A stretch of 64,000 nucleotides of DNA from Desulfatiglandales bacterium (GCA_963662465.1 OY759599.1:3296001-3360000), one strand, 5' to 3'. Shown: positions 41,768 through 60,105, counted from the first letter of the stretch. Program-made: numbers and translations. Notes: a model not told the origin generated them from the letters alone.

Positions 41768-43626
41768 ATGACGGTGGCCGTTCTGGCGACTGGTGCACCT
41801 TTGGACGGAACAAACTGGTGGAAATCCATAAACTGGAAAACCGCCGGGGAGCATGTTAGAAGACTGCAGGTGCGTATCGCAAAGGCTGTGAAGGAAAAGC
41901 GATGGGGAAAAGTCAAGGTGATACAGTGGCTTTTGACTCATTCGTTTTATGCCAAGTTGTTGGCTATCAAGCGCGTTACTTCCAACCGGGGTAAACGCAC
42001 ACCGGGAGTGGATAAAGTCATATGGTCCACCCACATTGACAAAATGCAAGCGGTAAACGACCTGCGCCGAAGAGCCTACCGACCCAAACCGCTGCGCCGA
42101 ATTTACATACCCAAGAAAAACGGCAAGAAACGCCCATTGGGCATTCCCACAATGAAGGACAGAGCCATGCAGGCATTGTACAAATTGGCGCTTGATCCGG
42201 TGGCGGAAACCACCGCCGATCCGAACTCTTACGGGTTCAGACCCTATCGGGGATGTGCAGATGCCATCGGTCAGTGTTTTATTTCTCTGGCCAAGCGCTA
42301 CTCACCCGTATGGATTCTGGAGGGAGATATAAAGGCCTGTTTTGATGAAATCAGCCATCAGTGGATACTCGAAAATATCCCGATGGATAAACGGACGCTT
42401 CAGAAATGGCTGAAAGCCGGGTATGTAGAAGGAGGCAAGCTCTATCCGACATACAGAGGAACCCCGCAAGGCGGCTTATGCAAAGCTTTGCATAACCCGC
42501 CTTATGCCAAGTTGCCGATTATGCAAAGTAAACCGCTAAAGCTACCAGATTTCCAACACGTTCACTGAGTTTACTTTGCATAATATCACGGGTACCTCAA
42601 ACTTGAAATCCAATTAAACGATGCAGCATCCTTGGTTTATTTTGGATAAAATGATCTGGTTTTTTCCGACAAACGATTTTGTGAGCTTTTCGCTCAGTCA
42701 TCATTAGCAAAGATTATGCTAAGTAAATCAAAAAGAAACCCTTGAATTACAATGCGTTTTATGGCTTACTTTGCATAATTACTTTCTTTGCATAAGGCGG
42801 GATTATCTCTCCAACATTGGCTAATATGGTCCTGGATGGTCTGGAAGCGGCAGCCAAAAGCACCGCCCCGATAAGAATTCAGGGAAATATACGGTCCAAG
42901 ATAAACGTAATCCGCTACGCTGATGATTTTATCATCACCGGGAATTCCAGAGAGATGCTAAATGAGATCAAGCTGGAAATTGAAGCATTTATGGAGCGAA
43001 GAGGTCTTTCGCTTTCAGCGGAAAAGACGTTGATCACAAGGATAGAAGAAGGATTTGATTTTCTCGGACAAAGTTCACGCAAATACGGAGGAAAACTTTT
43101 GATAAAGCCCTCTCGCAAAAACGTGAAAGCCTTTTTAGGCAATATCCGGAAAACAATCCGAAAGCATGCGGCATCAAGAGCCGACATTCTGATTAAAGTA
43201 CTCAATCCCAAAATCAGGGGGTGGGCCAATTACCACAGGCATGTGGTTTCCGGTAGAACTTTCGGGCTTGTAGATCACCGTATCTACAGCTATATTTGGC
43301 AATGGATGAGGAGGAAACATTCGGGCAAGAGTAAGAGTTGGCTGGTGGATAAATACTGGTCAAAAGGATCTCGCCCGTGGTCCTTTTCAGCGGTGATCAA
43401 GGACGGCTATGCGAAATCCGCCAGAATTGAACTTGAGAAGGCTTACGACGTCAAGATAAAACGCCATGTCAAAATTCGAGGGGATGCGAACCCCTTCAAT
43501 CCGAAATATGAACAATATTTCAGGAAACGATATGCCCAACGCAGTCAGCAGAAGGCAGACAGGCGTAAAGAGCATAAAACGTCACAACCGGGTAGCCCCG
43601 AAAGGGCTTGCCTTTGGAATGCTTGA
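41768..43626 (+). pseudogene. ltrA: RT/maturase interrupted at PQGG
   Basis: Two halves match the intact RT. Confidence 0.9.
42476..42801. mobile_element. Non-coding element with dif/RIT-like sites, orientation 1
   Basis: ttatgcaaag/ctttgcataa arms flanking 6-bp spacers. Confidence 0.8.
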
Positions 43627-43737
43627 GCCGTGTGCGTTTAACGGCGCACGCACGGTTCTTAGAGGGCTGGGGGATGGCAACATCCCCTGGCTACTCGACC
43701 AGACCCGCTGGACAGCGGGGGAACTTAACGTCGAAAA

Positions 43738-44937
43738 TTGGTAGAAATAGGTAAAATCGCAGTGGAAACGACGATTCAGGGCATCTTTCTTCTTGGCTAT
43801 GCCCTCTATAATCAGACGCATTGTCTTCCGGAACATATTCGTGAGGCGGCTCATCGTCTGATGTCCTGCCGCACGTCCATTCTGGGGAGGCACGTCCAGG
43901 CATGTCCGGATGGTCACTTCCAGAGGGTCTGGTATAACTCGTGTAAACACCGTATGTGCCCACTCTGCGCCTTCACCCAGGTTGAGCGGTGGCTGGCAAA
44001 ACAAAAGGCCCGACTCCTGAGTGCCGAGCATTTCCACGTTATTTTCACCATCTCCGATGAATTGCATGACTTATGGCGGCTGAACCGTAAAGTCATGGCC
44101 AATCTGCTGTTCAAAAGCACGACCGAGACCCTTTCCGAACTCCTTGGAGACCCGAAGCATTTGGGGGCCAAAGTCGGCATCATTGCCTCGTTGCATACCT
44201 GGAGCCGAAAATTGGATTTTCATCCCCATTTGCATTGTTTGGTGACGGCCGGTGGTCTGTCCGCCGGCGAGTGGATTGCTTCATCAAAAACGTTTCTTCT
44301 GCCGTTTGGCATTGTCCGGGCGGTTTTTCGAGGAAAATATCTCCACTATTTGAGAAAAGCCCTTGCCCGTGAAGAACTGATTCTGCCCGAAGGCATGGGA
44401 CCGCAGCAGGCGCGAAACCTGTTTAATAAGTTGGGGCGCCGTAAGAAGTGGAACGTTAAACTCAAGGAGACCTATTCATACGGAGAAGGGGTCTTAATTT
44501 ACCTGGCCCGGTATCTGAGAGGCGGACCGATCTCAAATAAACGCATCTTCCGCATTGAAAACGGAAACGTCACCTTCAATTACGGTCGTGAGCGGATAAG
44601 ACTCATTACTTTGCCGATTCAAACCTTTATCGGCCGCTACCTGCAACACGTTCCCCTGGCGAATTCCATGATGGTGCGTTCATACGGCCTTTACCATCAC
44701 AACGCAAAAAAAGAACTGGCACGCTGCCGGGAAATACTGGGACAACCGGCACTTGAAGATACGGAATTTCTGGACTGGCAGAGTCTGTGGCAGCAGCGAA
44801 GCGACGAGCAACCGGATTGTTGCCCAGTTTGCGGGAAACGTCTTATTACGTTGAAAATAGTTGCACCGGTAAGAAAGTCAAAAAGTCTTCCGAGGTTCAA
44901 TAAGGACCCGGATACGGTATATGCACAGGCAGCGTAA
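43738..44937 (+). CDS. IS91-family transposase
   Basis: SCKHRMCPLC, HTW...FHPHLH, YLARY; ori-like caatctccatag at ~45120. Confidence 0.9.
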   Translation: MVEIGKIAVETTIQGIFLLGYALYNQTHCLPEHIREAAHRLMSCRTSILGRHVQACPDGHFQRVWYNSCKHRMCPLCAFTQVERWLAKQKARLLSAEHFHVIFTISDELHDLWRLNRKVMANLLFKSTTETLSELLGDPKHLGAKVGIIASLHTWSRKLDFHPHLHCLVTAGGLSAGEWIASSKTFLLPFGIVRAVFRGKYLHYLRKALAREELILPEGMGPQQARNLFNKLGRRKKWNVKLKETYSYGEGVLIYLARYLRGGPISNKRIFRIENGNVTFNYGRERIRLITLPIQTFIGRYLQHVPLANSMMVRSYGLYHHNAKKELARCREILGQPALEDTEFLDWQSLWQQRSDEQPDCCPVCGKRLITLKIVAPVRKSKSLPRFNKDPDTVYAQAA

Positions 44938-45178
44938 AACGATAATAAACATGAGCATATTCAAAAAGGCACTTGAATGGCGAGACGTTTGGTAAAGGGA
45001 TAAATAACGCGATATTTCAGGGTTTTTGACGGATCATGCAATTGAAAGCAGGAATTTTATCATCCTTAACCGGCCATGACGGGTTAAAAAAAGGTCACGC
45101 GACAGCTGAGAAGCTCCCTCAATCTCCATAGCCGATCTCCTGCTTCCGGCAAAGTATGTGCTGATGACCCGCAGCTCT

Positions 45179-45309
45179 GTCCAACACCCCGTTGAACTGG
45201 AAAACTGGTATTGGGAGATAAACCGAAATGCGTTGGTTCCTACGAAGTCACCAGCTGGAATGATAATATATTTTTTTGAACCCGTTTTCCAGTTAACTAA
45301 ACGATGGTT
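45179..45309 (+). repeat. attC-like site with degenerate R'
   Basis: gtccAAC...ttgaactggaaaac pairs with gttttccagttaa; R' reads gatggtt. Confidence 0.6.
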
Positions 45310-46126: not shown

Positions 46127-46732
46127 AGAAAGGCCGGGCTTGCTAATTTGGCCGATCAGGTGCGCCAATGCTAAGTTCAGGTTTTCGCACTGGGGTAGCT
46201 TTGGCGTGGATTATCCGGTTCTATGCCTTTGTTACGTCTGTATGCGTAGGGATTCGAATGTACAAAGGAATAAGTCGTCATGTTTTATGAAAGTGAGGCC
46301 TAATTACTCCGTGATCCCGTGTAGTTAAAAACTTCGAGATCGGTTATGGGGATAGGGAGGAGCCTCACAGCTCCCCCCTCCCACACCACCGTACATACGG
46401 GTCCGTATACGGCGATTCGGCTGGTCAGAGCAGGCAAGGATAAAACAGGTTCCGCCCTACCGGGTTTTCCAGAATGCGACGTTATCGACCTTTCAGCTAC
46501 TGCTGCATTAGACCAATAAGTACACGTTCTTTGACAACCACAACCATTTACCCCTGCCATTCGGCAGGTGGCACCGTTCGGGCCTTCACCGGAGTGAGGC
46601 CTCCCTTTATTCAGGGCTCGTTTCTCCGGCTTAATATGCCCTCTGCTGACTCCCGTTACGCGGTGGGCTCCCCTTTCGGTTCGCTCACTCGTAGTTTCCG
46701 CAATCTGTCGAGTCCATTTGTTTGTGTTTCCC

Positions 46733-48738
46733 CGCATAAGTCTAAATGTTGTGGGGTTGTATAACCCATCAAAATTAAAAGGCGTTTTCGGTAAACAAGA
46801 ATGCATTATGAACCTTCATAACTTGAATCCAAGGTAAGTCAAATGTTTGGCCGTTGGCTAATTCAAAGGGACTTTTATGAGCATTTTTTGCGCCAGGTAA
46901 AAATGGGACAAAATTCCTGATAGTCGCATGTGCTCGAAAGAAAAGACTTGCCCATTTCTTATCTCGAAAACTCTCAATTTGTTTTAGTTTACGTTTGATT
47001 CCTTTTAAATAATTGTCAACAATGGAGGTTGTTTGTTTTATCCCATTTCTATTTTTATGAGAGGTATAATGAGTGGCATTTTCTTTTAATTCTACTACCC
47101 TCTTTTTTAGTAATGGATGAGAAAATGCATCGTCATCTAATGCCTTAATCTTTACTTCCAAGTTAACTTTAGATGTGGATGTTTTCAAAACTTTCTTAAA
47201 TTTTTTATAAAGCTTGTCCACTTCTTGGTCGGTACATTTTGATTCTTTTTGATATTTTGATAGTGCATCGTAGAAGTTTTTCAAACAATGACGATGGCAA
47301 TATCCGACCCAAATGTTATGGAATACGGTCTTGATAGCATTGGTTGAGGCTTTCCACTTATCTTTTGTTACACCAAGGATTTTGAAGTCGATTTTTTGCA
47401 AAAAATCCTCAAATGAACCGCACAGGTTTTCTTCATCAACATGATCAACATAATCGGAGTGCCATACTAATAAATTTTCAGGATCGACCATAACTACAGA
47501 ATAAGTTCTTAAATTTGGTTCTTTTTCAAAGCCCTCATCTTCCTGTAGATATCCTGAGCCTTTCACTCCTGCTCTTGTTAGTATTGTTGCAGGATGAAGT
47601 GTTCCTGCCCATCGATTCCAGTTCAAGATGGTCTGTTTGCTTTTGACACTTTTTTTGCCAATAATTTTAAGGCTTTCGATGGCTCCTTGAATGCTCGCAT
47701 TAAAACGGTACATATTCCGAAATACGTGCCCAATAATCTCTATACCAAAATTCTTTTCCCTTGGGAGAAAGCTGGGAACAAGAGAGAACTTTTGTTTGCA
47801 CTTCCGGCATTGTATCATGCGGATTGGGAATGTCTGTTGTTCTCCTCCATTCATTATTGTTTTTCGAGGATTCCCGCGGAAACCAGATAAAATATATTCT
47901 TTAGGTCCAGAACATGTTGAATTATGGCCTGTGTGGTGATCATATTTATCGAGTTTATCTAATACTTCAATGCGAAACTTCTTACTATCTTTTACGAGAG
48001 CATGATAGCTTTCGGTGTTATTATAAGGAAAGATATATGTTTGATTTCCTCGTTTAGAAACAAGGTCTTCCATTTTCTTTTTTACATTTTCGATTATGGA
48101 TTTATCAAAAGATTTTAACATCCCTATCTCAAATGCAATACTGATTGTACTATCACGACTTTTTACATTATTCAATTTTTTAGTAATATTACTTATCATT
48201 GAACGAATTGAATAAAAGATTCTAATTTTCTGTCGATCCCGTTGTGTTTTTGGAATGCTTTTTTTCCCTTTTATTGGCTTACAAATATCCCATAATTGAC
48301 TTATTAACCTACCAAGTTCATCAATAAGAGCAGACAATGTTACATAAAAATATTGCAATGATTGAAACATCTCCCTTTCATTGATCCATGATCTGATGGC
48401 ATTAATGCATTTCTCAATTTCAAAGAAAATCTCAGGATACTGTTTTGGATCGTAATAACATTGTCTTGCAAGTCTGTTTTGAGCTTTGTCCAACATTGTC
48501 AAAGCTCTCTTAATATTATTAATCATGTGCAACCTCTCTAATTTAACATAGACTGTTGCACTATGATTATGCACACTTATCAAAAAAAGTCCCTAACTTT
48601 TTTCCGCTAAGGCGAATTCAGGAAAAAATGTTTGGCCTCACGAAATGCGCTTTGATTAGGATATTGATTCTGAACCGTTTAACAGATGAAATAATTTCAA
48701 TATGTTAGAGTAAACCCCACAACATTTAGACTTATGCG
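46733..48738 (-). mobile_element. 2006-bp IS, copy 2
   Basis: Same TIRs as copy 1; 8-bp TSD tgtttccc. Confidence 0.9.
46775..48583 (-). CDS. Putative DDE transposase, 602 aa
   Basis: Near-identical to 6451-8259. Confidence 0.8.
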   Translation of the reverse strand: MISVHNHSATVYVKLERLHMINNIKRALTMLDKAQNRLARQCYYDPKQYPEIFFEIEKCINAIRSWINEREMFQSLQYFYVTLSALIDELGRLISQLWDICKPIKGKKSIPKTQRDRQKIRIFYSIRSMISNITKKLNNVKSRDSTISIAFEIGMLKSFDKSIIENVKKKMEDLVSKRGNQTYIFPYNNTESYHALVKDSKKFRIEVLDKLDKYDHHTGHNSTCSGPKEYILSGFRGNPRKTIMNGGEQQTFPIRMIQCRKCKQKFSLVPSFLPREKNFGIEIIGHVFRNMYRFNASIQGAIESLKIIGKKSVKSKQTILNWNRWAGTLHPATILTRAGVKGSGYLQEDEGFEKEPNLRTYSVVMVDPENLLVWHSDYVDHVDEENLCGSFEDFLQKIDFKILGVTKDKWKASTNAIKTVFHNIWVGYCHRHCLKNFYDALSKYQKESKCTDQEVDKLYKKFKKVLKTSTSKVNLEVKIKALDDDAFSHPLLKKRVVELKENATHYTSHKNRNGIKQTTSIVDNYLKGIKRKLKQIESFRDKKWASLFFRAHATIRNFVPFLPGAKNAHKSPFELANGQTFDLPWIQVMKVHNAFLFTENAF

Positions 48739-49186
48739 TGTTTCCCGACCAATAGGCCGGGCTCGTCAGGGCTATGACTCGAAATGTTCCTGACGCCAGG
48801 GTTTTGTTTTACCGGTTTTCCCTTATATTCCGGTAGATTTCAGTTGCAGTTCCCTACGAGACGCAACGGGCCTCCCGGGGTAAACACGTGTCTTTCCGCA
48901 CACGAGCGCCGACAACGTGCCTGGCCTATAGTAGTTAGAGGACTTTGTTCTGTGTTGCGGACTCGTCCCACCAGACCCGCCTCACTCGATTTCTGTTCGT
49001 CGCCCCGTGCGTTTGCGGTGCCCTGCCGCAGCAAGGCCACTGCCTCTCCAGGCCCGTTACCGGGTACCCGGTTGTGATACCGCTACACCCTTCGCCACTA
49101 CCTGGCTGGGTCTGGGACTTGCGTAAAATATCGGAAGCATGGTACATTGCGCGCACCCTTAAGAACACGTGCCGTGCCCGGCACAC

Positions 49187-49270
49187 AACCAAACGCTCCA
49201 CCAGACGCCTGACAGTCCTGCGGTCCTGGCAGGGGCCGAAGGAGGAGGCGCTGGTGAGCTTGTCGTTGGC
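49187..49270 (+). repeat. attC-like site with an intron at each end
   Basis: ggtt|AAC split by C1; GTTggc| followed by A5. Confidence 0.85.
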
Positions 49271-49903
49271 ATGCGACGTGATGTCGCGTAAGTAGCTGTT
49301 TTATATATTGATATAAACCATATAACAAAACCCTGTTTTCTGCAACAGGCATTCTACCGGGACATGCGTCCGGAGTAATCCGGGGGTGTGAAGCTCTCGG
49401 GACAATGAAGCCCGCGGAATTTTCCGGAAGAGGGAACCGTGAGGGGACCTCAACTCTGCAAGCATCATGCGGTGAGGGAGCTAGAATTGAGCAGTACGGT
49501 TAACACATGTGAATCGCTGCAGCGTCGTCACGAGAACAAGCCTAAGATGCTGAAAGGCTTGGACCAAAAGGTACGTGGCCAGGAACGGAGGCTGCGAACT
49601 CCTCCGTCGCAGATGTCGTGCCACCGGCGTAGGGGCGGAACCTAACCTGCTCGGGTACTTACGCGGAACATGGTAAGCCCGTAACCCTCCCCACGGGGAA
49701 AGCGAACCGCAAGGTGAGCCCATGGGGTTGCGGGTAAAGGATGTCAGAAAAAGCGAATGCCTCGTTGTAATGATGGGGATACGGATTGATGGTAATCACC
49801 GACATGATCCGGCTCGAAAGAGAGCAGACTTCTGACCGGTGTTCCATTGCGAGATAATCTGTAGAATCTTCAAACAGGGGAAAGCAGCCAGTGAAACGGG
49901 CGA

Positions 49904-51761
49904 ATGACGGTGGCCGTTTTGGCGACTGGTGCACCTTTGGACGGAACAAACTGGTGGAAATCCATAAACTGGAAAACCGCCGGGGAGCATGTTAGAAGAC
50001 TGCAGGTGCGTATCGCAAAGGCTGTGAAGGAAAAGCGATGGGGAAAAGTCAAGGTGATACAGTGGCTTTTGACTCATTCGTTTTATGCCAAGTTGTTGGC
50101 TATCAAGCGCGTTACTTCCAACCGGGGTAAACGCACACCGGGAGTGGATAAAGTCATATGGTCCACCCACATTGACAAAATGCAAGCGGTAAACGACCTG
50201 CGCCGAAGAGCCTACCGACCCAAACCGCTGCGCCGAATTTACATACCCAAGAAAAACGGCAAGAAACGCCCATTGGGCATTCCCACAATGAAGGACAGAG
50301 CCATGCAGGCATTGTACAAATTGGCGCTTGATCCGGTGGCGGAAACCACCGCCGATCCGAACTCTTACGGGTTCAGACCCTATCGGGGATGTGCGGATGC
50401 CATCGGTCAGTGTTTTATTTCTCTGGCCAAGCGCTACTCACCCGTATCGATTCTGGAGGGAGATATAAAGGCCTGTTTTGATGAAATCAGCCATCAATGG
50501 ATGCTCGAAAATATCCCGATGGATAAACGGACGCTTCAGAAATGGCTGAAAGCCGGGTATGTAGAAGGAGGCAAGCTCTATCCGACATACAGAGGAACCC
50601 CGCAAAGCGGGTTATGCAAAGCTTTGCATAACCCGCCTTATGCAAAGAAAGTAATTATGCAAAGTAAACCGTAAAAGCCATAATAATTCAAGAGATTCTT
50701 GTTGATTTGCTTAGCATAATCTCCACTTATGGTGAATGAGAAAAAGTTCAAAAAATCATTAGACAAAACAAAGGAGCTATTTTTATCCAAAACAAACGAA
50801 GAATGCTGCATCATTTACTTGGCTTTCAAGTCTGAAGTAGTCGTGATATTATGCAAAGTAAATTCAGTGCATATGCTTGAAATATTGCACCTTAACTGAT
50901 TTACTTTGCATAATCGTTAACTTTGCATAAGGCGGGATTATCTCTCCAACATTGGCTAATATGGTCCTGGATGGTCTGGAAGCGGCAGCCAAAAGCACCG
51001 CCCCGATAAGAATTCAGGGAAATATACGATCCAAAATAAACGTAATCCGCTACGCTGATGATTTTATCATCACCGGGAATTCCAGAGAGATGCTAAATGA
51101 GATCAAGCTGGAAATTGAAGCATTTATGGAGCGAAGAGGTCTTTCGCTTTCAGCGGAAAAGACGTTGATCACAAGGATAGAAGAAGGATTTGATTTTCTC
51201 GGACAAAGTTCACGCAAATACGGAGGAAAACTTTTGATAAAGCCCTCTCGCAAAAACGTGAAAGCCTTTTTAGGCAATATCCGGAAAACAATCCGAAAGC
51301 ATGCGGCATCAAGAGCCGACATTCTGATTAAAGTACTCAATCCCAAAATCAGGGGGTGGGCCAATTACCACAGGCATGTGGTTTCCGGTAGAACTTTCGG
51401 GCTTGTAGATCACCGTATCTACAGCTATATTTGGCAATGGATGAGGAGGAAACATTCGGGCAAGAGTAAGAGTTGGCTGGTGGATAAATACTGGTCAAAA
51501 GGATCTCGCCCGTGGTCCTTTTCAGCGGTGATCAAGGACGGCTATGCGAAATCCGCCAGAATTGAACTTGAGAAGGCTTACGACGTCAAGATAAAACGCC
51601 ATGTCAAAATTCGAGGGGATGCGAACCCCTTCGATCCGAAATATGAACAATATTTCAGGAAACGATATGCCCAACGCAGTCAGCAGAAGGCAGACAGGCG
51701 TAAAGAGCATAAAACGTCACAACCGGGTAGCCCCGAAAGGGCTTGCCTTTGGAATGCTTGA
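49904..51761 (+). pseudogene. ltrA: RT/maturase interrupted at the PQGG motif
   Basis: Two halves match the intact RT. Confidence 0.9.
50612..50936. mobile_element. Non-coding dif/RIT-like element, orientation 2
   Basis: Interior is a diverged reverse complement of the 42476 copy. Confidence 0.8.
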
Positions 51762-51979
51762 GCCGTGTGCGTTTAACGGCGCACGCACGGTTCTTAGAGG
51801 GCTGGGGGATGGCAACATCCCCTGGCTACTCGACTTGATGAGCTTCTGCAAAGGAGAAGGAAGATGTTAAGCGTGTATTTGCCGGTAATTGGAAACATCA
51901 ATAAGAGGCCTCGTATCTCGGACTTCGCTTCAGCGCGTTAGCCACTTGAAAATCAGCCTGTAAAGGAGAATGCTTAGCT

Positions 51980-52225
51980 ATGCCAGTAGTCTTCAGGTAC
52001 AAGGGATATCGTTTTTTCTTTTTCTCAAATGAAGGAGATCCACCTGAACCGATTCACATACATGTGCGACGTGGTGAGGCTACAGCAAAGTTCTGGATGT
52101 CACCTCAGATCAGCCTTGCGGAATCATACAATATGAACTCTTCTGAACTCCGCGAACTCATGCGAGTGGCTGAAAAAAACAGGAAACTCATTGAAAGGTA
52201 TTGGGATGAACACTTTAGCATTTAA
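51980..52225 (+). CDS. DUF4160-family protein (TA-like)
   Basis: GYRFFFFSNEGDPPEPIHIHV...AKFW. Confidence 0.8.
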   Translation: MPVVFRYKGYRFFFFSNEGDPPEPIHIHVRRGEATAKFWMSPQISLAESYNMNSSELRELMRVAEKNRKLIERYWDEHFSI

Positions 52226-52475
52226 ACCACGTGCCAAAAAAGTGACTTTTGACTCGGACAACATGTGGGTAGCACTCACCGATGGACGTCAGCTCGGTGT
52301 TCCTATTGCTTACTTCCCACGACTCCTCAATGCAACTGAAGCTCAAAGAGATGATTACATCATCAGCGGCGGAGGTAGTGGCCTGCATTGGGAGGAACTC
52401 GACGAGGACATTTCTGTTAAAGGCCTTTTATTGGGAATTGGTGATAGGACTCGACCTGACAGAAAGGCGGCATGA
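52206..52475 (+). CDS. DUF2442-family protein (TA-like)
   Basis: LTDGR.LGVP...PRLLNAT...GLHWEELDEDISV. Confidence 0.8.
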   Translation: MNTLAFKPRAKKVTFDSDNMWVALTDGRQLGVPIAYFPRLLNATEAQRDDYIISGGGSGLHWEELDEDISVKGLLLGIGDRTRPDRKAA

Positions 52476-52869
52476 CTGCTTTCAGCCACTTCCTTGCTAA
52501 CAGTAACTACAGCAGACAGTCAGAGCGCTGGCGTAGTTGGCAGATAAGCGTGATTCGAAATTGAAATTGATCTTTTTATTCCAAGATGCGCGAGCACTGG
52601 TCGTTGCTCAATATGGCGTTAATCGCAACCCGTCATTAGCATTTTTGAAGGGGAAAGAAACTGTTCAGCGCTCATTCGCCGATAACGGGGATAACGAATA
52701 AGGAAGAAGATCATTTTTTAAAGGCGAGTTGTGCAATGTCCATTTATTTCTATCATATTCCGCTGAATGTGCCAATAGCCATCGAATGTGAAAAAAATAA
52801 GTGATATGCTTATAGCTAGGTCCAAGCTTTTTTGTCATATAATTCCGTGGGGTTAAGAAAATCTATGAG

Positions 52870-52954
52870 CGCCAACCAAACGCTCCAGCGGACCCCTGAA
52901 AGTCTGTCGGTTCTAGCGGGGACCGGTGGAGGGGCCGCTGAACTTGTCGTTCGC
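52870..52954 (+). repeat. attC-like site (family 1), intron inserted in R'
   Basis: cgccAAC...cagcgg...ccgctg...GTTcgc. Confidence 0.85.
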
Positions 52955-53587
52955 GTGCGACGTGATGTCGCGTAAGTAGCTGTTTTATATATTGATATAA
53001 ACCATACAACAAAACCCTGTTTTCTGCAACAGGTATTCTACCGGGACATGCGTCCGGAGTAATCCGGGGGTGTGAAGCTCTCGGGACAATGAAGCCCGCG
53101 GAATTTTCCGGAAGAGGGAACCGTGAGGGGACCTCAACTCTGCAAGCATCATGCGGTGAGGGAGCTAGAATTGAGCAGTACGGTTAACACATGTGAATCG
53201 CTGCAGCGTCGTCACGAGAACAAGCCTAAGATGCTGAAAGGCTTGGACCAAAAGGTACGTGGCCAGGAACGGAGGCTGCGAACTCCTCCGTCGCAGATGT
53301 CGTGCCACCGGCGTAGGGGCGGAACCTAACCTGCTCGGGTACTTACGCGGAACATGGTAAGCCCGTAATCCTCCCCACGGGGAAAGCGAACCGCAAGGTG
53401 AGCCCATGGGGTTGCGGGTAGAGGATGTCAGAAAAAGCGAATGCTCCGTTGTAATGATGGGGATACGGATTGATGGTAATCACCGACATGATCCGGCTCG
53501 AAAGAGAGCAGACTTCTGACCGGTGTTCCATTGCGAGATAATCTGTAGAATCTTCAAACAGGGGAAAGCAGCCAGTGAAACGGGCGA

Positions 53588-55445
53588 ATGACGGTGGCCG
53601 TTCTGGCGACTGGTGCACCTTTGGACGGAACAAACTGGTGGAAATCCATAAACTGGAAAACCGCCGGGGAGCATGTTAGAAGACTGCAGGTGCGTATCGC
53701 AAAGGCTGTGAAGGAAAAGCGATGGGGAAAAGTCAAGGTGATACAGTGGCTTTTGACTCATTCGTTTTATGCCAAGTTGTTGGCTATCAAGCGCGTTACT
53801 TCCAACCGGGGTAAACGCACACCGGGAGTGGATAAAGTCATATGGTCCACCCACATTGACAAAATGCAAACGGTAAACGACCTGCGCCGAAGAGCCTACC
53901 GACCCAAACCGCTGCGCCGAATTTACATACCCAAGAAAAACGGCAAGAAACGCCCATTGGGCATTCCCACAATGAAGGACAGAGCCATGCAGGCATTGTA
54001 CAAATTGGCGCTTGATCCGGTAGCGGAAACCACCGCCGATCCGAACTCTTACGGGTTCAGACCCTATCGGGGATGTGCGGATGCCATCGGTCAGTGTTTT
54101 ATTTCTCTGGCCAAGCGCTACTCACCCGTATGGATTCTGGAGGGAGATATAAAGGCCTGTTTTGATGAAATCAGCCATCAATGGATGCTCGAAAATATCC
54201 CGATGGATAAACGGACGCTTCAGAAATGGCTGAAAGCCGGGTATGTAGAAGGAGGCAAGCTCTATCCGACATACAGAGGAACCCCGCAAGGCGGGTTATG
54301 CAAAGCTTTGCATAACCCGCCTTATGCAAAGAAAGTAATTATGCAAAGTAAACCGTAAAAGCCATAATAATTCAAGAGATTCTTGTTGATTTGCTTAGCA
54401 TAATCTCCACTTATGGTGAATGAGAAAAAGTTCAAAAAATCATTAGACAAAACAAAGGAGCTATTTTTATCCAAAACAAACGAAGAATGCTGCATCATTT
54501 ACTTGGCTTTCAAGTCTGAAGTAGTCGTGATATTATGCAAAGTAAATTCAGTGCATATGCTTGAAATATTGCACCTTAACTGATTTACTTTGCATAATCG
54601 TTAACTTTGCATAAGGCGGGATTATCTCTCCAACATTGGCTAATATGGTCCTGGATGGTCTGGAAGCGGCAGCCAAAAGCACCGCCCCGATAAGAATTCA
54701 GGGAAATATACGGTCCAAGATAAACGTAATCCGCTACGCTGATGATTTTATCATCACCGGGAATTCCAGAGAGATGCTAAATGAGATCAAGCTGGAAATT
54801 GAAGCATTTATGGAGCGAAGAGGTCTTTCGCTTTCAGCGGAAAAGACGTTGATCACAAGGATAGAAGAAGGATTTGATTTTCTCGGACAAAGTTCACGCA
54901 AATACGGAGGAAAACTTTTGATAAAGCCCTCTCGCAAAAACGTGAAAGCCTTTTTAGGCAATATCCGGAAAACAATCCGAAAGCATGCGGCATCAAGAGC
55001 CGACATTCTGATTAAAGTACTCAATCCCAAAATCAGGGGGTGGGCCAATTACCACAGGCATGTGGTTTCCGGTAGAACTTTCGGGCTTGTAGATCACCGT
55101 ATCTACAGCTATATTTGGCAATGGATGAGGAGGAAACATTCGGGCAAGAGTAAGAGTTGGCTGGTGGATAAATACTGGTCAAAAGGATCTCGCCCGTGGT
55201 CCTTTTCAGCGGTGATCAAGGACGGCTATGCGAAATCCGCCAGAATTGAACTTGAGAAGGCTTACGACGTCAAGATAAAACGCCATGTCAAAATTCGAGG
55301 GGATGCGAACCCCTTCGATCCGAAATATGAACAATATTTCAGGAAACGATATGCCCAACGCAGTCAGCAGAAGGCAGACAGGCGTAAAGAGCATAAAACG
55401 TCACAACCGGGTAGCCCCGAAAGGGCTTGCCTTTGGAATGCTTGA
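53588..55445 (+). pseudogene. ltrA: RT/maturase interrupted at PQGG
   Basis: Two halves match the intact RT. Confidence 0.9.
54296..54620. mobile_element. Non-coding dif/RIT-like element, orientation 2
   Basis: Perfect ggcggg direct repeats at 54290-54295 and 54615-54620. Confidence 0.8.
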
Positions 55446-55607
55446 GCCGTGTGCGTTTAACGGCGCACGCACGGTTCTTAGAGGGCTGGGGGATGGTGAC
55501 ATCCCCGGCTACTCGACCCAGAATATTGGCTACAACTGGATCGCAGTGGCGACCAAATAAGTACACAGTGAAGTGTATAAAGATCCATATCCGAGGGCCG
55601 AAAATAG

Positions 55608-55988
55608 ATGGTAAATATTGACAAACATATTTTGTATTGGAAAAGCGGCGCAGAAGAAGATTTTCAAGTGGCAGATCAGCTTATCAGGTCCGGCAAAACC
55701 CGTCACGGACTTTTCTTTCTTCATCTAACACTTGAGAAAATTCTCAAAGCCCATGTTTGCCGCAACAGTAGGGATATCGCTCCAAGACTACACAATCTTG
55801 CAAGACTTTCAGAATTGACTGGAATTGTCTTCAAACAGGAAGATTCGGATTTTCTTGCAGAAATGAATCCGTTCAACATTGAGGGACGTTATCCCGAAAT
55901 GTGGGGACCTGTTCCGTCCCGCGAGGAAGCGGACACGCTACTGCTAAAATCAGGAGGGATATTCGAATGGCTCAAGAATCAATTATAA
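55608..55988 (+). CDS. HEPN-domain protein
   Basis: LFFLHLTLEKILKA...HNLARL...EGRYP. Confidence 0.85.
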   Translation: MVNIDKHILYWKSGAEEDFQVADQLIRSGKTRHGLFFLHLTLEKILKAHVCRNSRDIAPRLHNLARLSELTGIVFKQEDSDFLAEMNPFNIEGRYPEMWGPVPSREEADTLLLKSGGIFEWLKNQL

Positions 55989-56290
55989 AATCAATCAGGA
56001 AATATCTGAACGAACTTCAACGGCTTGGCGTCCCAATCAAATTCGGCATTTTGTTCGGTTCACACGCTCGCAAAGACACAAACAAATGGAGTGACATAGA
56101 TTTGTTAGTAGTGTCACCTCGATATGATGAATCTTACAACCGAGAAGATATCAATATGCTTTGGCGGACCGCAGCCCGCACAGACAACCGGATAGAACCC
56201 GTCCCCGTAGGTCTTCACCGGTGGGAAACGGACGACGAAAGTACAATCATCGAAGCAGCACGACGCGAGGGAATACTGGTAAACGCATAA
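55967..56290 (+). CDS. Minimal nucleotidyltransferase (MNT)
   Basis: LFGSHAR...WSDIDLLVVS. Confidence 0.85.
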   Translation: MAQESIIKSIRKYLNELQRLGVPIKFGILFGSHARKDTNKWSDIDLLVVSPRYDESYNREDINMLWRTAARTDNRIEPVPVGLHRWETDDESTIIEAARREGILVNA

Positions 56291-56350
56291 GATATGACAA
56301 AAAACCACATGCTATTGAAAATAAGCATCCAAACTTACCCTATAGCGGTT

Positions 56351-57176
56351 ATAGGGATAGGGAGGAGCCTCACAGCTCCCCCCTCCCACCACCGTACATA
56401 CGGGTCCGTATACGGCGATTCGGCTGGTCAGAGCAGGCAAGGATAAAACAGGTTCCGCCCTACCGGGTTTTCCAGAATGCGACGTTATCGACCTTTCAGC
56501 TACTGCTGCATTAGACCAATAAGTACACGTTCTTTGACAACCACAACCATTTACCCCTGCCATTCGGCAGGTGGCACCGTTCGGGCCTTCACCGGAGTGA
56601 GGCCTCCCTTTATTCAGGGCTCGTTTCTCCGGCTTAATATGCCCTCTGCTGACTCCCGTTACGCGGTGGGCTCCCCTTTCGGTTCGCTCACTCGTAGTTT
56701 CCGCAATCTGTCGAGTCCATTTGTTTGTGTTTCCCGACCAATAGGCCGGGCTCGTCAGGGCTATGACTCGAAATGTTCCTGACGCCAGGGTTTTGTTTTA
56801 CCGGTTTTCCCTTATATTCCGGTAGATTTCAGTTGCAGTTCCCTACGAGACGCAACGGGCCTCCCGGGGTAAACACGTGTCTTTCCGCACACGAGCGCCG
56901 ACAACGTGCCTGGCCTATAGTAGTTAGAGGACTTTGTTCTGTGTTGCGGACTCGTCCCACCAGACCCGCCTCACTCGATTTCTGTTCGTCGCCCCGTGCG
57001 TTCGCGGTACCCTGCCGAAGCAAGGTCACTGCCTTCCCAGGCACCGTTACCGAATACCCGGTTGTGATACCGCTACACCCTTCGCCACTACCTGGCTGGG
57101 TCTGGGACTTGCGTAACATATCGGAAGCATGATATATTACGCGCACCCTTAAGAACACGTGCCGTGCCCGGCACAC
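56351..57176 (-). mobile_element. ORF-less group IIC-attC intron C2 (826 nt)
   Basis: Uninterrupted copy of C1; removing it restores ggtt|aaccaaacg. Confidence 0.9.
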
Positions 57177-57257
57177 AACCAAACGCTCCACCAGACGCCT
57201 GATAGTCCGGCGGTTCCGGCGAGGGCTGGCAGAGGCGCTGGTGAGCTTACCGTTGGC
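57177..57257 (+). repeat. attC-like site with an intron at each end
   Basis: AACcaaacgctccaccag...ctggtgagcttacc GTTggc. Confidence 0.85.
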
Positions 57258-58082
57258 TTGCGACACGGAGTCGCATAGTTTAAGTGTATTCATGTAGTTA
57301 CATGTATTACCCGGTATGTCCCTACCGGACCCTACGCAGGCATGCTGCCGTTGCGCTGATGACGGGGTGTGAAGCCCTGCGGACAACGTACCGAATTGGG
57401 TTTGAATGGCGACAGGAGAACCCCTCCGGGAATCCTCCCCGGTTAAGGGCCAGGGTCAGATGATATGGTGAAGGTATCTGAATGTCTTTAAGCGTCGATC
57501 ACAAGCGAAGGGCCTACGAGGATTAACAGGTCTTATGCCGCTGCCCAGTGTCAGCGGATGTGGTCAGGTTGCAGGTCTGCTAACTGCCTGCACGGAACTG
57601 TTGTACCACCGGCGTAGAGGGCGCACCTAAGTCATCCATTGGATCAACTATGTGGAACGTGGAAACCCGGTCCCGCCGCCCCTTTTGGGGGCAGGCTAAC
57701 CGTAAGGCATGCTGTTGGCGGGCCGGAGTAGGAGGCTGAAAAAAGCGAATGCCGGGCTGTAATGGTCCGGATACCGGGTGAAACATTCCCGGCTCCGTAA
57801 GGAGGCAAACGTTCAGCGTGGTGCCCGATCACGTGAACACCGGAGGAATCAGATGAAAGCGGGGAAAGCAGCCAGTGAAACGGGCGAATGACGGCCCTTG
57901 AGGCTGGTGCGCCCCGCGCGCCTTTGGCTACTCTGACAGCCGGCTTGTAACGTGAAGTAGATGCAAATCCGCGGGAATCCCAACCAGGGAAACCTTTTCG
58001 GGGGCTTGAGCCACGTGAGGTGAAAGTCTCATGCGTGGTTCTGAGGGGGGAATGGGACTGAGAGGTCCCTGACCTACCCGAT
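57258..58082 (+). mobile_element. ORF-less group II intron B4 with an alternative D6
   Basis: TTGCG start; ends gacctacccgAT. Confidence 0.9.
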
Positions 58083-58143
58083 CAGACCCGCTGGACAGCG
58101 GGGGAACTAACGTCGTAACTCCCAGTAAATAAAGGAGGTTTCA

Positions 58144-59319
58144 GTGGAAGCGACGATTCAGAGCATCTTTCTTATAGGCTATGCCCTCTATGATCAGACC
58201 CATCTTCTTCCGGAACATATTCGTGAAGCGGCACACCGTCTGATGAGTTGCCGCACATCTGCTCTGGGGGGTCACGTGCAGGCGTGCCCGGACGGTCACT
58301 TCAAAAGGCACTGGTACAACTCGTGTAAACATCGCATGTGCCCCCTCTGCGCTTTTACCCAGGTGAAACGTTGGCTGGCAAAACAAAAGGCTCGCATCTT
58401 AAACACCGAACATTTCCATGTTATTTTCACCATCTCCGATGAATTGCACGACTTATGGCGGTTGAACCGCAAGCTTATGGGCAATCTGCTGTTCAAAAGC
58501 GCCACTGAAACCCTTTCCGAACTCCTTGGAGATCCGAAGCATTTGGGGGGCAAAGTCGGCATCATCGCCTCACTGCATACCTGGAGCCGAAAACTGGACT
58601 TTCATCCGCATCTGCATTGTCTGGTAACGGCCGGTGGGCTGATCGCCGGCGAGTGGATCGCTTCATCAAAAAAATTCCTTTTGCCCTTTGGCATCGTCCG
58701 GGCGGTATTTCGAGGCAAGTACCTCTACTATTTGAGAAAAGCCCTGGATCGGAACGAACTGGTTCTGCCCGAGGGCATGGGGCCTCAGCAGGCCCGGAAC
58801 CTCTTCAATAAACTGGGCCGCCGCAAAAAATGGAACGTCAAGCTCAAAGAGACCTATTCATACGGTGAAGGCGTGTTGATTTACCTGGCGCGTTACTTGA
58901 GAGGCGGAGCAATTTCAAACAAACGCATCTACAGCATTGAAAACGGGAACGTGACCTTCAATTACGGTCGTGAGAAGGTAAAACTCATCTCCCTGCCGAT
59001 TCAAACCTTTATCAGCCGCTATCTGCAACACGTCCCCCTAGCAAATACCGTGATGGTGCGTTCATACGAACTCTATCATCACAGCTCAAAAGAAGAACTG
59101 GCACTCTGCCGGGAAATACTGGGTCAACCGCCTCTTGAAGATACGGAATTTCTGGATTGGCAGACCTTGTGGCAACAGCGAAGCGATGAGCAACCGGACC
59201 GTTGCCCTGTTTGTGGGAAGTGCCTCATAACTCTGGAAATATTGACGCCGGTCAAAAAGTTAAGAGAGCTTCCGAGGTTCAATAAAGTCCATGACATGAT
59301 ACATGCCCAAGCAGCATAG
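58144..59319 (+). CDS. IS91-family transposase
   Basis: Diverged paralogue of 43738; same motifs; GGAGG RBS. Confidence 0.9.
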   Translation: MEATIQSIFLIGYALYDQTHLLPEHIREAAHRLMSCRTSALGGHVQACPDGHFKRHWYNSCKHRMCPLCAFTQVKRWLAKQKARILNTEHFHVIFTISDELHDLWRLNRKLMGNLLFKSATETLSELLGDPKHLGGKVGIIASLHTWSRKLDFHPHLHCLVTAGGLIAGEWIASSKKFLLPFGIVRAVFRGKYLYYLRKALDRNELVLPEGMGPQQARNLFNKLGRRKKWNVKLKETYSYGEGVLIYLARYLRGGAISNKRIYSIENGNVTFNYGREKVKLISLPIQTFISRYLQHVPLANTVMVRSYELYHHSSKEELALCREILGQPPLEDTEFLDWQTLWQQRSDEQPDRCPVCGKCLITLEILTPVKKLRELPRFNKVHDMIHAQAA

Positions 59320-59342
59320 ATTAAGCATGCGCAGTCGAAAGG

Positions 59343-59446
59343 CAGGGCAAATTTGTTCTATTTGTAAACCTTTGATATCAAAACCTTATGAAGGACACAT
59401 CAATTCAAACAAATCAATGGATTAGCGTTAGAACAAATTCACCGTG
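59343..59446 (+). mobile_element. 104-bp MITE, copy 2
   Basis: Reverse complement of 12914-13017; 10-bp TSD agtcgaaagg. Confidence 0.9.
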
Positions 59447-60105
59447 AGTCGAAAGGTCTTTAGTCGAGTGAAAGGTTTTTGATGTCGAGGTGTTTGGTAA
59501 ACTGCCTAATAACACGATATTTTGGCATTTTTAGCGGGACCATGCGATCAAAAAAAGAAATTTTATCATTTTTAACTGGCTTAGACCGGAATGATGGGTC
59601 AAAAAGAAGTCATGCGGTAGCTGCAAAGATCGTTTAATCTCCATAGCGGCGATCCTGCTCCCATTAACCTATGTGCGTGTGACTCGCGGGTCTGTCCAAC
59701 CAGCCGTTGAACGAAGCTTCGCAAACGCCAAAGCGGTAAAAAGTTTAGTGCTAACAAACCAGTTAAGTTGTTGCGGTTATTGGCATTATGTTGCTAAATC
59801 CAAAAAAAACAGCGGAAAGCAATCTCTAACAGCAAGTAGTGTGCCAAAACGACAACCATGTTCAACCAATGGTTCAAGTCTGATATTTTTCGTCCCAAAA
59901 ATTGCATTTGAGATTTTGTCGCCGTTTTTTACGTTGGGAGGGCAGCAATTTTTGGGCCGAAAAATTACAGCTTAACTCAATGTTATGCCTCCCCAAAAAT
60001 CAGTAAGGAGTTGAAACGAAATGCAAAATCGGGGAGCTGAATAGAAAAGCGGTTTGGGGCTATTTCGGCGACAATCTAAACGAATATTTTTGAGGAGAAA
60101 ATAAA

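What the first reader, a model, noticed from the sequence alone, without database searches (positions are those of the whole stretch)
46342..58082. Single attC sites occupied at both ends by introns of two classes in opposite orientation
Seen: attC 49187-49270 has IIC intron C1 (- strand) splitting R'' (ggtt|aac) and intron A5 (+ strand) in R'. attC 57177-57257 has C2 and B4 arranged the same way. The two intron 5' ends point away from an ~80-bp hairpin. Inference: the two classes partition the same target (bottom-strand structure recognition vs top-strand EBS pairing). IntI recombination at these sites is probably disabled, which would freeze the adjacent cassettes.
Basis: partly seen in the sequence, partly recalled or inferred. 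Interest (0 to 1): 0.8.

Follow-up and report, generated by a model that had tools for sequence, protein, structure and literature searches.

The report
Integron attC sites flanked by two introns
Two recombination hairpins (attC sites) of a large chromosomal integron each carry a class IIC group II intron on one side and a class IIB intron on the other, most likely because two intron lineages home independently to opposite strands and ends of the same site.

Summary
The window lies in an integron cassette array, with intI 7.4 kb to its left. attC 49187-49270 is flanked by C1 (46346-49186, minus strand) and A5 (49271-51834, plus strand). attC 57177-57257 is flanked by C2 (56351-57176, minus) and B4 (57258-58082, plus).

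C1 and C2 are 826-nt ORF-less IIC ribozymes inserted after GTT on the bottom strand of R''. C1 is also broken by a 2006-bp IS. A5 and B4 are chloroplast-like IIB introns inserted after GTTGGC of R' on the top strand. Their EBS1 and EBS2 loops pair with the R' core and the spacer before it. A5's RT gene is split by a ~326-bp MITE.

Double occupancy recurs: 4 of 60 attCs in this genome and 1 in a congener. That is close to chance. A/B introns occupy 9 of the 11 attCs in the window, and genome-wide 1.9 doubles are expected (Fisher p=0.07).

The "two recognition modes" idea is supported. The "disabled IntI / frozen cassettes" idea is untested. The AAC/GTT triplets survive, and 4 of 6 attI-like sites carry an A/B intron directly after GTT, which argues weakly against it.

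The more novel result is an attC-homing IIB lineage. One earlier single case, UHB.I2, is in print.

The parts
46342..46345 (+). Left half of R'' (GGTT) of attC-1, separated from its AAC by C1
   Evidence: Sequence. An uninterrupted GGTTAAC R'' is seen at attC 41046-41136.
46346..49186 (-). C1: ORF-less group IIC intron (826 nt of ribozyme) interrupted by an IS. Its 5' end GTGTGCC abuts AAC of attC-1.
   Evidence: RF02001 at 48884-49066 (81.7 bits) and RF00029 at 46346-46417 (45 bits). With the IS removed it matches C2 at 811 of 828 positions.
46733..48738 (-). 2006-bp IS inside C1: 26-bp inverted ends, 8-9 bp target duplication (TGTTTCCC), and a 602-aa ORF (46775-48583) with only a weak DUF6431 hit
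   Evidence: The genome holds 22 full-length copies at 99.7-100% (this one and one more in the window, 6409-8414, among them), plus fragments. No NCBIfam hit.
49187..49270 (+). attC-1: AAC...GTTGGC, an imperfect hairpin with unpaired bases on the R''-L'' arm
   Evidence: CM R1 scores 90.7 bits. Alignment and covariation.
49271..51834 (+). A5: chloroplast-like IIB intron. 5' end AUGCGAC, 3' end ...CUACUCGAC. The RT ORF is split into 256 aa (49904-50674) and 269 aa (50952-51761).
   Evidence: RF02012 (118 bits) and RF00029 (55 bits). Pfam RVT_N, RVT_1 and GIIM. EBS1 GCGAAC pairs with exon GTTGGC at 5 of 6 positions.
50605..50930 (+). ~326-bp hairpin-ended MITE inside A5's RT gene (ends uncertain by about 12 nt)
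   Evidence: The gap in the A5-versus-A1 alignment. Seven other near-full-length copies in the genome (80-100% identity) plus one half-length match; five of the seven lie inside A introns, one of them in the opposite orientation (A4).
52866..52954 (+). Neighbouring attC with an A intron only (A6, 52955-55517). It serves as a single-occupancy comparator inside the finding's span.
   Evidence: CM R1 scores 91.8 bits. Flanks.
55608..56290 (+). HEPN and nucleotidyltransferase gene pair. This is the body of the cassette whose attC carries C2.
   Evidence: Pfam HEPN (E 1e-15) and NTP_transf_2 (E 1e-9).
56351..57176 (-). C2: intact-length 826-nt ORF-less group IIC intron
   Evidence: RF02001 at 56873-57037 (82.2 bits) and RF00029 at 56351-56420 (42 bits). 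The genome holds pieces of about 10 copies, six of them full length, counting C1 with its IS removed (94-100% identical).
57177..57257 (+). attC-2, 71 of 84 positions identical to attC-1
   Evidence: CM R1 scores 99.6 bits. Identity.
57258..58082 (+). B4: 825-nt ORF-less IIB intron. 5' end UUGCGAC, 3' end ...CUACCCGAU.
   Evidence: RF02012 (79 bits) and RF00029 (67.5 bits). EBS1 GCTAAC pairs with GTTGGC at 6 of 6 positions, one of them a G-U pair. Boundaries are fixed by intron-free copies of the downstream cassette, which read GTTGGA|CAGACCC.
58083..59750 (+). IS91-family transposase gene cassette that follows B4. The same cassette type follows A4 at 43700-45303.
   Evidence: NF033538, 349 bits. 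Intron-free copies follow attC or attI sites at 16 other places, all reading GTTGGA|CAGACCC. The 1609-bp unit has its own attC. The right end is approximate.

Best explanation
The window is part of a large sedentary chromosomal integron. Its attC sites are homing targets for two unrelated group II intron lineages, which use opposite strands and opposite ends of the site.

(1) A IIC lineage (C) reverse-splices into the bottom strand directly after the GTT that ends the folded attC hairpin, that is, inside R''. It reads the hairpin plus a roughly 4-5 nt IBS1 (T[G/T]GTT), as known IIC-attC introns do.

(2) A chloroplast-like IIB lineage reverse-splices into the top strand 3 nt past the GTT of R'. 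It comprises the RT-encoding A form and ORF-less B derivatives. It reads the site by ordinary base pairing: EBS1 with (C)GTTNNN and EBS2 with GCTTGT of the L'-R' spacer. It needs nothing from the 3' exon.

The two insertion points are about 84 nt apart, lie on different strands and do not destroy each other's determinants. An attC can therefore hold both introns, and double occupancy appears at about the frequency expected from the two occupancy rates.

Shown here: the identities of the elements, their exact junctions, the EBS-IBS complementarity with covariation, and the recurrence. Inferred: the order and independence of the insertions, mobilisation of the four non-autonomous copies in trans (intact A RTs exist in the window at 1788-3320, 34151-35683 and 36376-37908), and continued IntI activity at these sites.
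For: Element identity.

That the hairpin is attC: intI 7.4 kb to the left; 11 co-oriented copies in the window; 9 of 20 pairs with compensatory changes and unpaired bases on the R''-L'' arm.

C targeting: 10 of 10 copies with a 5' end follow ...GTT| and abut AAC of a hairpin. 6 of these match model R1; the other 4 were judged by eye.

A/B targeting:
- Of 26 5' ends in the genome, 20 follow an attC, 2 follow another intron in tandem and 4 follow an attI-like site.
- EBS1 sits in a hairpin loop and covaries with the exon. EBS1 GCGAAC goes with exon GTTCG[C/T] at 6 of 10 A sites, against 0 of 10 sites with B-type EBS1 (p=0.011).
- The variant with EBS1 CTCGAACGT pairs with ACGTTCGAG at 9 of 9 positions.
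- In other genomes, relatives with 82-85% RT identity also follow attCs, of this and of a different family. Their EBS1 is changed to match (TTTAAC and CTTAAC opposite GTTTTAAA and GTTAAT).
- The tandem run A2|A3|B at one attC shows repeated use of the same 5' exon.

Boundaries: fixed by empty-site comparisons.

Recurrence: four double sites in this genome in different cassettes, and one in another species of the genus with unrelated flanks.

Agreement with chance.

Strand rule: C lies on the lagging-strand template at 10 of 10 sites, and A/B on the leading-strand template at 24 of 26. Origin (~5.5 Mb) and terminus (~1.7 Mb) were taken from GC skew.
Against: - The odds ratio of 5.2 (p=0.074) leaves room for a real positive association between C and A/B occupancy.
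- The census is biased. Model R1 was built from window attCs, 9 of 11 of them next to an intron, and its alignment includes the first 2 intron bases. Only 150 of 2308 first-look candidates were scored. Other attC families are not counted, for example that of the IS91 cassette.
- IBS1 pairing is imperfect at several sites: A5 5 of 6, two B sites 3 of 6, two sites 4 of 6.
- The attI-like sites lack IBS2.
- At both intron-occupied IS91-cassette starts the base before the intron is C, while all 16 intron-free copies have A. I cannot explain this beyond target choice.
- No intact RT of the C lineage was found. The only ORF-bearing copy is frameshifted, so C mobility today is unproven.
- Public short-read contigs bridge the left flank to C2 and attC-2 to B4. 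None bridges the C2 5' end to attC-2 by 31 nt or more.
Confidence: 0.65

Rival explanations
1. Coupled occupancy. One insertion favours the other. For example, a IIC intron in R'' could lower IntI excision, so that the site persists and collects further elements. Alternatively it could change how the attC folds, so that the top strand is exposed to the IIB RNP.
For: 4 of 6 C-bearing R1-family attCs also carry A/B, against 15 of 54 without C (odds ratio 5.2). Both window sites also hold further nested elements: an IS in C1, a MITE in A5 and an IS91 cassette after B4.
Against: p=0.074 on related, non-independent sites. Counting all 10 C copies, only 4 are double. In the window 9 of 11 attCs have A/B regardless of C. 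The AAC/GTT triplets and both arms are intact. There is no direct evidence on IntI activity.
Confidence: 0.12
2. Double occupancy is assembled by IntI rather than by two homing events at one site. The A/B intron lies downstream of the G|TT crossover and so belongs to the next cassette. IntI could place an intron-led cassette behind a cassette whose attC already holds a IIC intron.
For: 4 of 6 attI-like sites carry an A/B intron right after GTTNNN although IBS2 is absent there. The IS91 cassette that follows A4 and B4 is itself found at attI sites and in an 8-copy tandem run, so cassettes here have moved recently. The same cassette is seen with different downstream neighbours.
Against: No case was found of one identical unit 'TTNNN + intron + cassette' behind two different attCs. 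The tandem A2|A3|B run and the EBS1-exon covariation show direct homing at attC. This rival also requires a C-bearing attC to stay recombinogenic, which is untested.
Confidence: 0.2
3. Artefact or misidentification. Either the junctions are assembly joins between repeats, or the hairpin is not an attC but, say, an IS91 end or a terminator.
For: The region is dense in repeats. Short-read contigs break at the C|attC boundary. IS91-family genes follow A4 and B4.
Against: The genome is one 8.16-Mb contig. The same architecture is found at 4 sites with different flanks, and in an independent assembly of another species. Contigs bridge flank|C2 and attC|B4. attC features and the nearby intI are as expected. 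The IS91 gene is itself a cassette with its own attC.
Confidence: 0.03

Closest known systems
Group IIC-attC introns (e.g. S.ma.I2 of Serratia marcescens). Read: passages of PMC3001079 and PMC7923331.
   Same: C1 and C2 are IIC ribozymes in the bottom strand, antisense to the cassettes. They lie between the cassette gene and its attC, at R'', directly 3' of the folded hairpin. The IBS1 is short and T/G-rich and ends in GTT.
   Different: C1 and C2 are ORF-less (826 nt), and C1 is broken by an IS. The only ORF-bearing sibling has a frameshifted RT. With GUGUG...AU boundaries the junction reads T[G/T]GTT|A. The published consensus is TTGT/T. A T is repeated at both ends, so the site is ambiguous by 1 nt. 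Membership of the monophyletic IIC-attC RT clade was not tested.
UHB.I2, a IIB1/CL1 intron found directly after an attC in a soda-lake metagenome contig (Sonbol and Siam 2021, PMC7923331; sections 7, 11 and 12 read)
   Same: A IIB intron in the same orientation as the cassettes, immediately after an attC. It has the unusual 5'-UUGCG start (as in B4), a GU 3' end (as in the B copy at 10435-11399), and an RT without an endonuclease domain.
   Different: That report is a single copy, and its authors saw no conserved flanking exons. Here 20 of 26 copies follow attCs and 4 follow attI-like sites. EBS1 and EBS2 can be assigned to the R' core and the spacer with covariation. Relatives in other genomes do the same. 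The introns also share attCs with IIC introns. I did not compare sequences with UHB.I2, and its supplementary figures were not read.
[quoted passage not shown]
   Same: [quoted passage not shown]
   Different: That intron is class IIC. A and B are IIB and have an EBS2.
IS1111-attC insertion sequences (Tetu and Holmes 2008; seen only in the reference list of PMC3001079; what they do is recalled)
   Same: Another class of mobile element specialised on attC sites.
   Different: They are DNA transposons, not retroelements. No member was identified here.

Membership tests
Integron attC site | Inverted core sites: R'' ending in AAC and R' starting with GTT | tested here: met
   AAC and GTT are invariant in all 11 window copies. 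attC-1 reads GGTT|AAC...GTTGGC, and attC-2 reads the same.
Integron attC site | Imperfect hairpin with extrahelical bases on one arm and a variable central part | tested here: met
   The consensus structure has 20 pairs, 9 of them with compensatory changes. Columns 23 and 30 on the R''-L'' arm are unpaired, and the centre is variable. Single-sequence fold z-scores are weak.
Integron attC site | Co-oriented array downstream of an integron integrase gene | tested here: met
   TIGR02249 match of 444 bits at genome 3287696-3288643 (minus strand), 7.4 kb left of the window. All 12 strong model hits in the window and the 10 kb to its left are on the plus strand.
Integron attC site | Recombined by IntI | not testable with these tools
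   Indirect only. The same cassettes occur with different neighbours, at attI sites, and as an 8-copy tandem run.
Group IIC intron (C1, C2) | Ribozyme domains: D1-D4 and D5-D6 covariance-model matches | tested here: met
   RF02001 at 82 bits over the full model, and RF00029 at 45 and 42 bits (gathering score 40). That RF02001 stands for class C is my assumption, not shown by a tool.
Group IIC intron (C1, C2) | Class C reverse transcriptase | tested here: inconclusive
   C1 and C2 have no ORF. The sibling copy at genome 443329-445456 holds a frameshifted RT. Its 329-aa N-terminal part best matches GsI-IIC RT (6AR1, E 2e-99) and other IIC RTs.
Group IIC intron (C1, C2) | Inserted just 3' of a stem-loop, with a short IBS1 and no IBS2 | tested here: met
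   10 of 10 copies follow ...GTT at the base of an AAC...GTT hairpin. EBS1 inside the ribozyme was not mapped.
Group IIC-attC sub-lineage | Monophyletic RT clade | not tested
   No phylogeny was made. tblastn against plasmids gave at best about 60% identity to assorted group II RTs.
Group IIC-attC sub-lineage | Insertion at the consensus TTGT/T in R'' of the bottom strand | tested here: inconclusive
   Observed: T[G/T]GTT|A. This is equally readable as T[G/T]GT|T because a T is repeated at both intron ends. The consensus is taken from PMC7923331.
Group IIB (chloroplast-like) intron (A5, B4) | Ribozyme domains and, for A, an RT with maturase domain | tested here: met
   RF02012 and RF00029. RVT_N, RVT_1 and GIIM, with no endonuclease domain found. 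TIGR04416 at 366 bits. Best solved relative is 6ME0_C, E 2.6e-170. That 6ME0 is the IIB intron T.el4h is recalled, not shown by a tool.
Group IIB (chloroplast-like) intron (A5, B4) | EBS1-IBS1 and EBS2-IBS2 pairings of about 6 bp with the 5' exon | tested here: met
   EBS1 lies in a hairpin loop. It pairs at 5 or 6 of 6 positions at 15 of the 20 sites scored, and covaries with the exon. ACAAGC lies opposite GCTTGT in the aligned EBS2 stretch of A and the B10435 variant; in most B copies the aligned stretch reads differently and ACAAGC was placed by eye. No full D1 structure was built.
Group IIB (chloroplast-like) intron (A5, B4) | Consensus boundaries 5'-GUGYG ... AY-3' | tested here: not met
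   A5 starts AUGCG and B4 starts UUGCG. A1, A2, A3 and A6 start GUGCG. The 3' ends are AC (A5) and AU (B4). UHB.I2 shows the same departure (PMC7923331).

The most novel reading that the evidence does not exclude
A and B define an 'IIB-attC' lineage: a chloroplast-like IIB retroelement whose EBS1 has been retuned to read the integron crossover core (GTTRRR) and whose EBS2 reads the adjacent spacer. Because it lands just downstream of the G|TT crossover, it becomes the 5' leader of the next cassette and is spread by IntI as well as by retrohoming; hence the introns at 4 of 6 attI-like sites. It enters the leading-strand template (24 of 26 copies), while IIC introns enter the lagging-strand template of the same hairpin (10 of 10). 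An attC would then be a two-sided landing pad that stays recombinogenic even when both sides are filled.
Probability: 0.35. Interest if true: 0.65.

Novelty: new variant of a known kind. Interest (0 to 1): 0.5.

Why it matters
Integron attC sites were known as targets of one intron lineage, IIC-attC, which recognises them by structure on the bottom strand.

This genome shows a second, unrelated lineage (IIB) that has specialised on the same recombination site. It uses plain base pairing to the top-strand R' core, at high density: 9 of 11 attCs in the window.

This gives a natural system for three questions:
- How do endonuclease-less IIB introns enter the leading-strand template?
- Do introns placed next to the crossover point ride along with cassettes?
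- How much insertion can an attC tolerate before IntI stops using it?

Double occupancy itself looks like a by-product and not a new mechanism.

Tried and rejected
- Outward promoter. I looked for a sigma-70-type promoter in C2 that could drive B4, as described for IIC-attC introns. None was found in 56300-57400. The scan covers only one promoter type.
- Read support. One call on Logan contigs of four runs. The contigs are short and break at repeats, so they neither confirm nor contradict the C2 5'|attC junction. A low-depth joint from 57254 to 58083 (shorter side 21 nt) most likely comes from the intron-free paralogous sites that read GTTGGA|CAGACCC. I do not take it as intron loss.
- tblastn of the C-lineage RT remnant against plasmids gave only ~60% matches to generic group II RTs. 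It does not help place the lineage in the IIC-attC clade.
- First idea for C1: a IIC intron with a novel 602-aa non-RT ORF. Rejected. The ORF belongs to a 2006-bp IS with inverted ends and a target duplication. The IS occurs about 25 times elsewhere in the genome, outside introns.
- First idea for the sequence after A4 and B4: an IS91 element targeting R'. Revised. The IS91-family gene is a 1609-bp integron cassette with its own attC, found at attI sites and in tandem.
- I first took the B copies at 18683 and 26313 for ~800-nt ORF-less introns sharing a downstream cassette. In fact a ~3.17-kb element carrying a serine recombinase gene sits in their domain 6 region.
- A search for one identical 'intron + cassette' unit behind two different attCs found none. 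This was meant as a direct test of hitch-hiking.
- Literature. Searches found no report of one attC carrying introns on both sides. The library lacks most subscription journals, including the J Bacteriol, Microbiology and J Mol Evol papers on IIC-attC introns.

Full report
**What is at the coordinates**

Rfam gathering-score searches find 26 group II intron matches in the window. Four elements bracket the two hairpins named in the finding.

- On the minus strand, RF02001 (D1-D4) and RF00029 (D5-D6) define C1 and C2. C1 gives hits at 48884-49066 and 46346-46417. C2 gives hits at 56873-57037 and 56351-56420.
- On the plus strand, RF02012 and RF00029 define A5 and B4. A5 gives hits at 49331-49480 and 51758-51834. 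B4 gives hits at 57310-57450 and 58006-58082.

Reading the junctions gives:
- ...CGGTT | C1 (46346-49186, minus) | AAC...attC-1 (49187-49270)...GTTGGC | A5 (49271-51834, plus)
- ...GCGGTT | C2 (56351-57176, minus) | AAC...attC-2 (57177-57257)...GTTGGC | B4 (57258-58082, plus)

**The hairpin is an attC**

- An integron integrase (TIGR02249, 444 bits) lies 7.4 kb left of the window on the minus strand.
- Eleven copies of the hairpin lie in the window, all on the plus strand.
- AAC and GTT are invariant. Of the 20 consensus pairs, 9 show compensatory changes, for example CACCAGACGCC/GGCGCTGGTG against CACCGGACCCC/GGGGCCGGTG. Two bases on the R''-L'' arm stay unpaired, as expected for the extrahelical bases.
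- Folding energies of the two single sequences are only weakly better than shuffles (z between -0.9 and -2.6). Covariation carries the argument.
- A covariance model built from the 11 copies finds 60 sites in the 8.16-Mb genome. Only 150 of 2308 first-look candidates were scored.

**What the four introns are**

- C1 is not a 2.8-kb intron. It equals C2 (826 nt; 811 of 828 positions identical) plus a 2006-bp IS at 46733-48738. The IS has 26-bp inverted ends and an 8-9 bp target duplication. Its 602-aa ORF is not an RT. The IS occurs about 25 times elsewhere in the genome.
- C2 and all but one of the other roughly 10 C copies have no ORF. The one ORF-bearing copy (genome 443329-445456) has a frameshifted RT. 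Its N-terminal 329 aa best match GsI-IIC RT and other IIC RTs among solved structures.
- A introns encode a 510-aa RT with RVT_N, RVT_1 and GIIM and no endonuclease domain. Its best solved relative is 6ME0_C (E 2.6e-170). By recall this is the IIB intron T.el4h.
- In A5, as in A4 and A6, the RT gene is split by a ~326-bp hairpin-ended MITE.
- B4 is an 825-nt ORF-less relative.
- All four introns at the two sites are therefore non-autonomous. Intact A RT genes exist nearby in the window at 1788-3320, 34151-35683 and 36376-37908.

**How each class finds the site**

*C lineage.* All 10 C copies with a 5' end follow ...T[G/T]GTT on the bottom strand and abut the AAC of a hairpin. Six of these hairpins match the model and four were judged by eye. 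This is the known IIC-attC behaviour: bottom strand, antisense to the cassettes, at R'' (PMC3001079 and PMC7923331, passages read). The published consensus is TTGT/T. Here the junction is GTT|A, or GT|T if the repeated T is assigned the other way.

*A/B lineage.*
- Of 26 5' ends in the genome, 20 follow GTTNNN of an attC, 2 follow another intron in tandem, and 4 follow an attI-like sequence.
- A hairpin loop in D1 carries EBS1. In A it is GCGAAC, which pairs with GTTCGC. In B it is GCTAAC, GTCAAC or CTCAAC, which pair with GTTAGC, GTTGGC or GTTGAG. One variant has CTCGAACGT opposite ACGTTCGAG (9 of 9 pairs).
- About 55 nt upstream of EBS1, ACAAGC faces GCTTGT of the spacer as a candidate EBS2: aligned in A and the B10435 variant, placed by eye in most B copies.
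- EBS1 GCGAAC goes with exon GTTCG[C/T] at 6 of 10 A sites, against 0 of 10 sites with B-type EBS1 (p=0.011). Pairing is 5 or 6 of 6 at 15 of the 20 sites scored, 4 of 6 at two and 3 of 6 at two.
- Relatives with 82-85% RT identity in other genomes also sit after attCs. One follows an attC of this family and two follow a different family. Their EBS1 is changed accordingly. More distant relatives (50-54% identity) do not follow attCs.
- The run A2|A3|B at one attC shows that only the 5' exon is needed.
- Boundaries are fixed by empty sites. Sixteen intron-free copies of the downstream IS91-family cassette read GTTGGA|CAGACCC, against GTTGGC|A4 or B4|CAGACCC.

**Is double occupancy special?**

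It recurs. Four of the 60 model-positive attCs have both introns: the two window sites and genome sites near 294 kb and 2.371 Mb. Each has different flanks, and Rfam hits on both sides. A fifth case lies in another species of the genus, with unrelated flanks.

It is near expectation, however. In the window 9 of 11 attCs carry A/B, so the chance that both C-bearing ones do is 0.65. Genome-wide the counts are 4, 2, 15 and 39, with 1.9 doubles expected, an odds ratio of 5.2 and p=0.074. The census is biased toward intron-adjacent attCs and leaves out other attC families.

**Strand rule**

GC skew puts the origin near 5.5 Mb and the terminus near 1.7 Mb. All 10 C copies lie on the lagging-strand template, and 24 of 26 A/B copies lie on the leading-strand template. 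This follows from the orientation of the arrays. It means the two classes must use different routes to cDNA priming.

**The 'frozen cassette' inference**

Nothing here tests IntI activity. The following argue against a block.
- Both insertions spare AAC, GTT, both arms and the unpaired bases.
- After GTT, the C intron's 5' end supplies GTGTG. This resembles natural R' variants such as GTTGTGC.
- The A/B intron lies downstream of the canonical crossover and would travel with the next cassette.
- Four of 6 attI-like sites have an A/B intron after GTTNNN without any IBS2. This fits IntI-mediated insertion of intron-led cassettes.
- Cassettes here have moved recently. The IS91 cassette is found at attI sites and as 8 tandem copies.

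I found no identical intron-plus-cassette unit in two contexts, so hitch-hiking remains an inference.

**Comparison with what is known**

IIC-attC introns are well described. A single IIB1/CL1 intron, UHB.I2, was reported in 2021 (PMC7923331). It starts UUGCG, is co-oriented with the cassettes and lies directly after an attC. No conserved target was recognised for it. The present case adds a multi-copy lineage with assignable EBS-IBS pairing to the R' core, relatives in other genomes, and co-occupancy with IIC introns. My searches found no report of an attC flanked by introns on both sides. Several key IIC-attC papers are not in the library.

**Verdict**

Double occupancy is best read as a by-product of two independent homing systems in an integron that is a hot spot for elements using single-stranded DNA. 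The attC-homing IIB lineage is the more interesting result.

Noticed in passing
window 50605-50930 (A5); also about 42470-42800 (A4, opposite orientation, 80% identical) and about 54290-54615 (A6): A ~326-bp MITE with a perfect terminal hairpin and repeated TTATGCAAAG motifs sits at the same hairpin (CCCGCAAGGCGGG) inside the RT gene of A introns, in both orientations. Of the other near-full-length copies in the genome, five of seven lie inside A introns. It looks like an element specialised on an intron-encoded gene.
   Followed up: partly
window 19500-25532 and 27115-30287: The B introns starting at 18683 and 26313 carry a nested element of ~3.17 kb (6 kb in the first) in their domain 6 region. 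It encodes a large serine recombinase on the minus strand (22701-24455, 27116-29209). The same junction recurs at 8 places in the genome, and at five of them (four outside the window) the true intron 3' end lies 3172-3173 bp further on.
   Followed up: partly
window 43700-45303 and 58083-~59750; genome 4413960-4425223: An IS91-family transposase gene is packaged as a 1609-bp integron cassette with its own attC (R'' GTCCAAC, R' GTTGGA). It is the first cassette at the attI of the window's own integron (genome 3288828). It also forms 8 tandem copies next to another intI.
   Followed up: partly
window 41130-41135 and 57252-57257, against 16 intron-free copies: The base just before the intron is C (GTTGGC) at both intron-occupied IS91-cassette starts, but A (GTTGGA) in all 16 intron-free copies from two cassette subfamilies. 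This could reflect target choice for a C that pairs with EBS1, or a change linked to insertion. Unexplained.
   Followed up: no
genome 3200369, 4983304, 5886462, 6844218, 656313, 622969: Six copies of an attI-like sequence (...AAAACCGTATAATCACTGGTT) exist. Four have an A/B intron right after GTTNNN. One (3200369) has only the first ~10 nt of an A intron and then unrelated sequence. The genome holds at least 5 integron integrase genes above the family cut-off.
   Followed up: partly
window 33531-38806: Three introns stand head to tail at one attC: A2 33531-35756, A3 35757-37981 and B 37982-38806. This implies repeated homing into the same 5' exon. By that logic the downstream-most intron is the oldest.
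   Followed up: partly
window 49271 and 41135 (AUGCGAC); 57258 and other B copies (UUGCGAC): The first intron nucleotide, normally an invariant G, is A in A4 and A5 and U in most B copies. One ORF-bearing B relative (genome 450963) starts with G. Whether these copies can still splice is unknown.
   Followed up: no
window 13980-17845: One long cassette-like interval holds FeeM-type N-acyl amino acid synthase genes (one intact, one split), an FAD-linked oxidase and a methyltransferase. This is a small biosynthetic set inside the array.
   Followed up: no
genome-wide: Besides A, B and C, the genome holds at least two more group II RT families in many identical copies: open frames of 439 aa (13 copies) and 435 aa (3 copies). 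Their targets were not examined.
   Followed up: no
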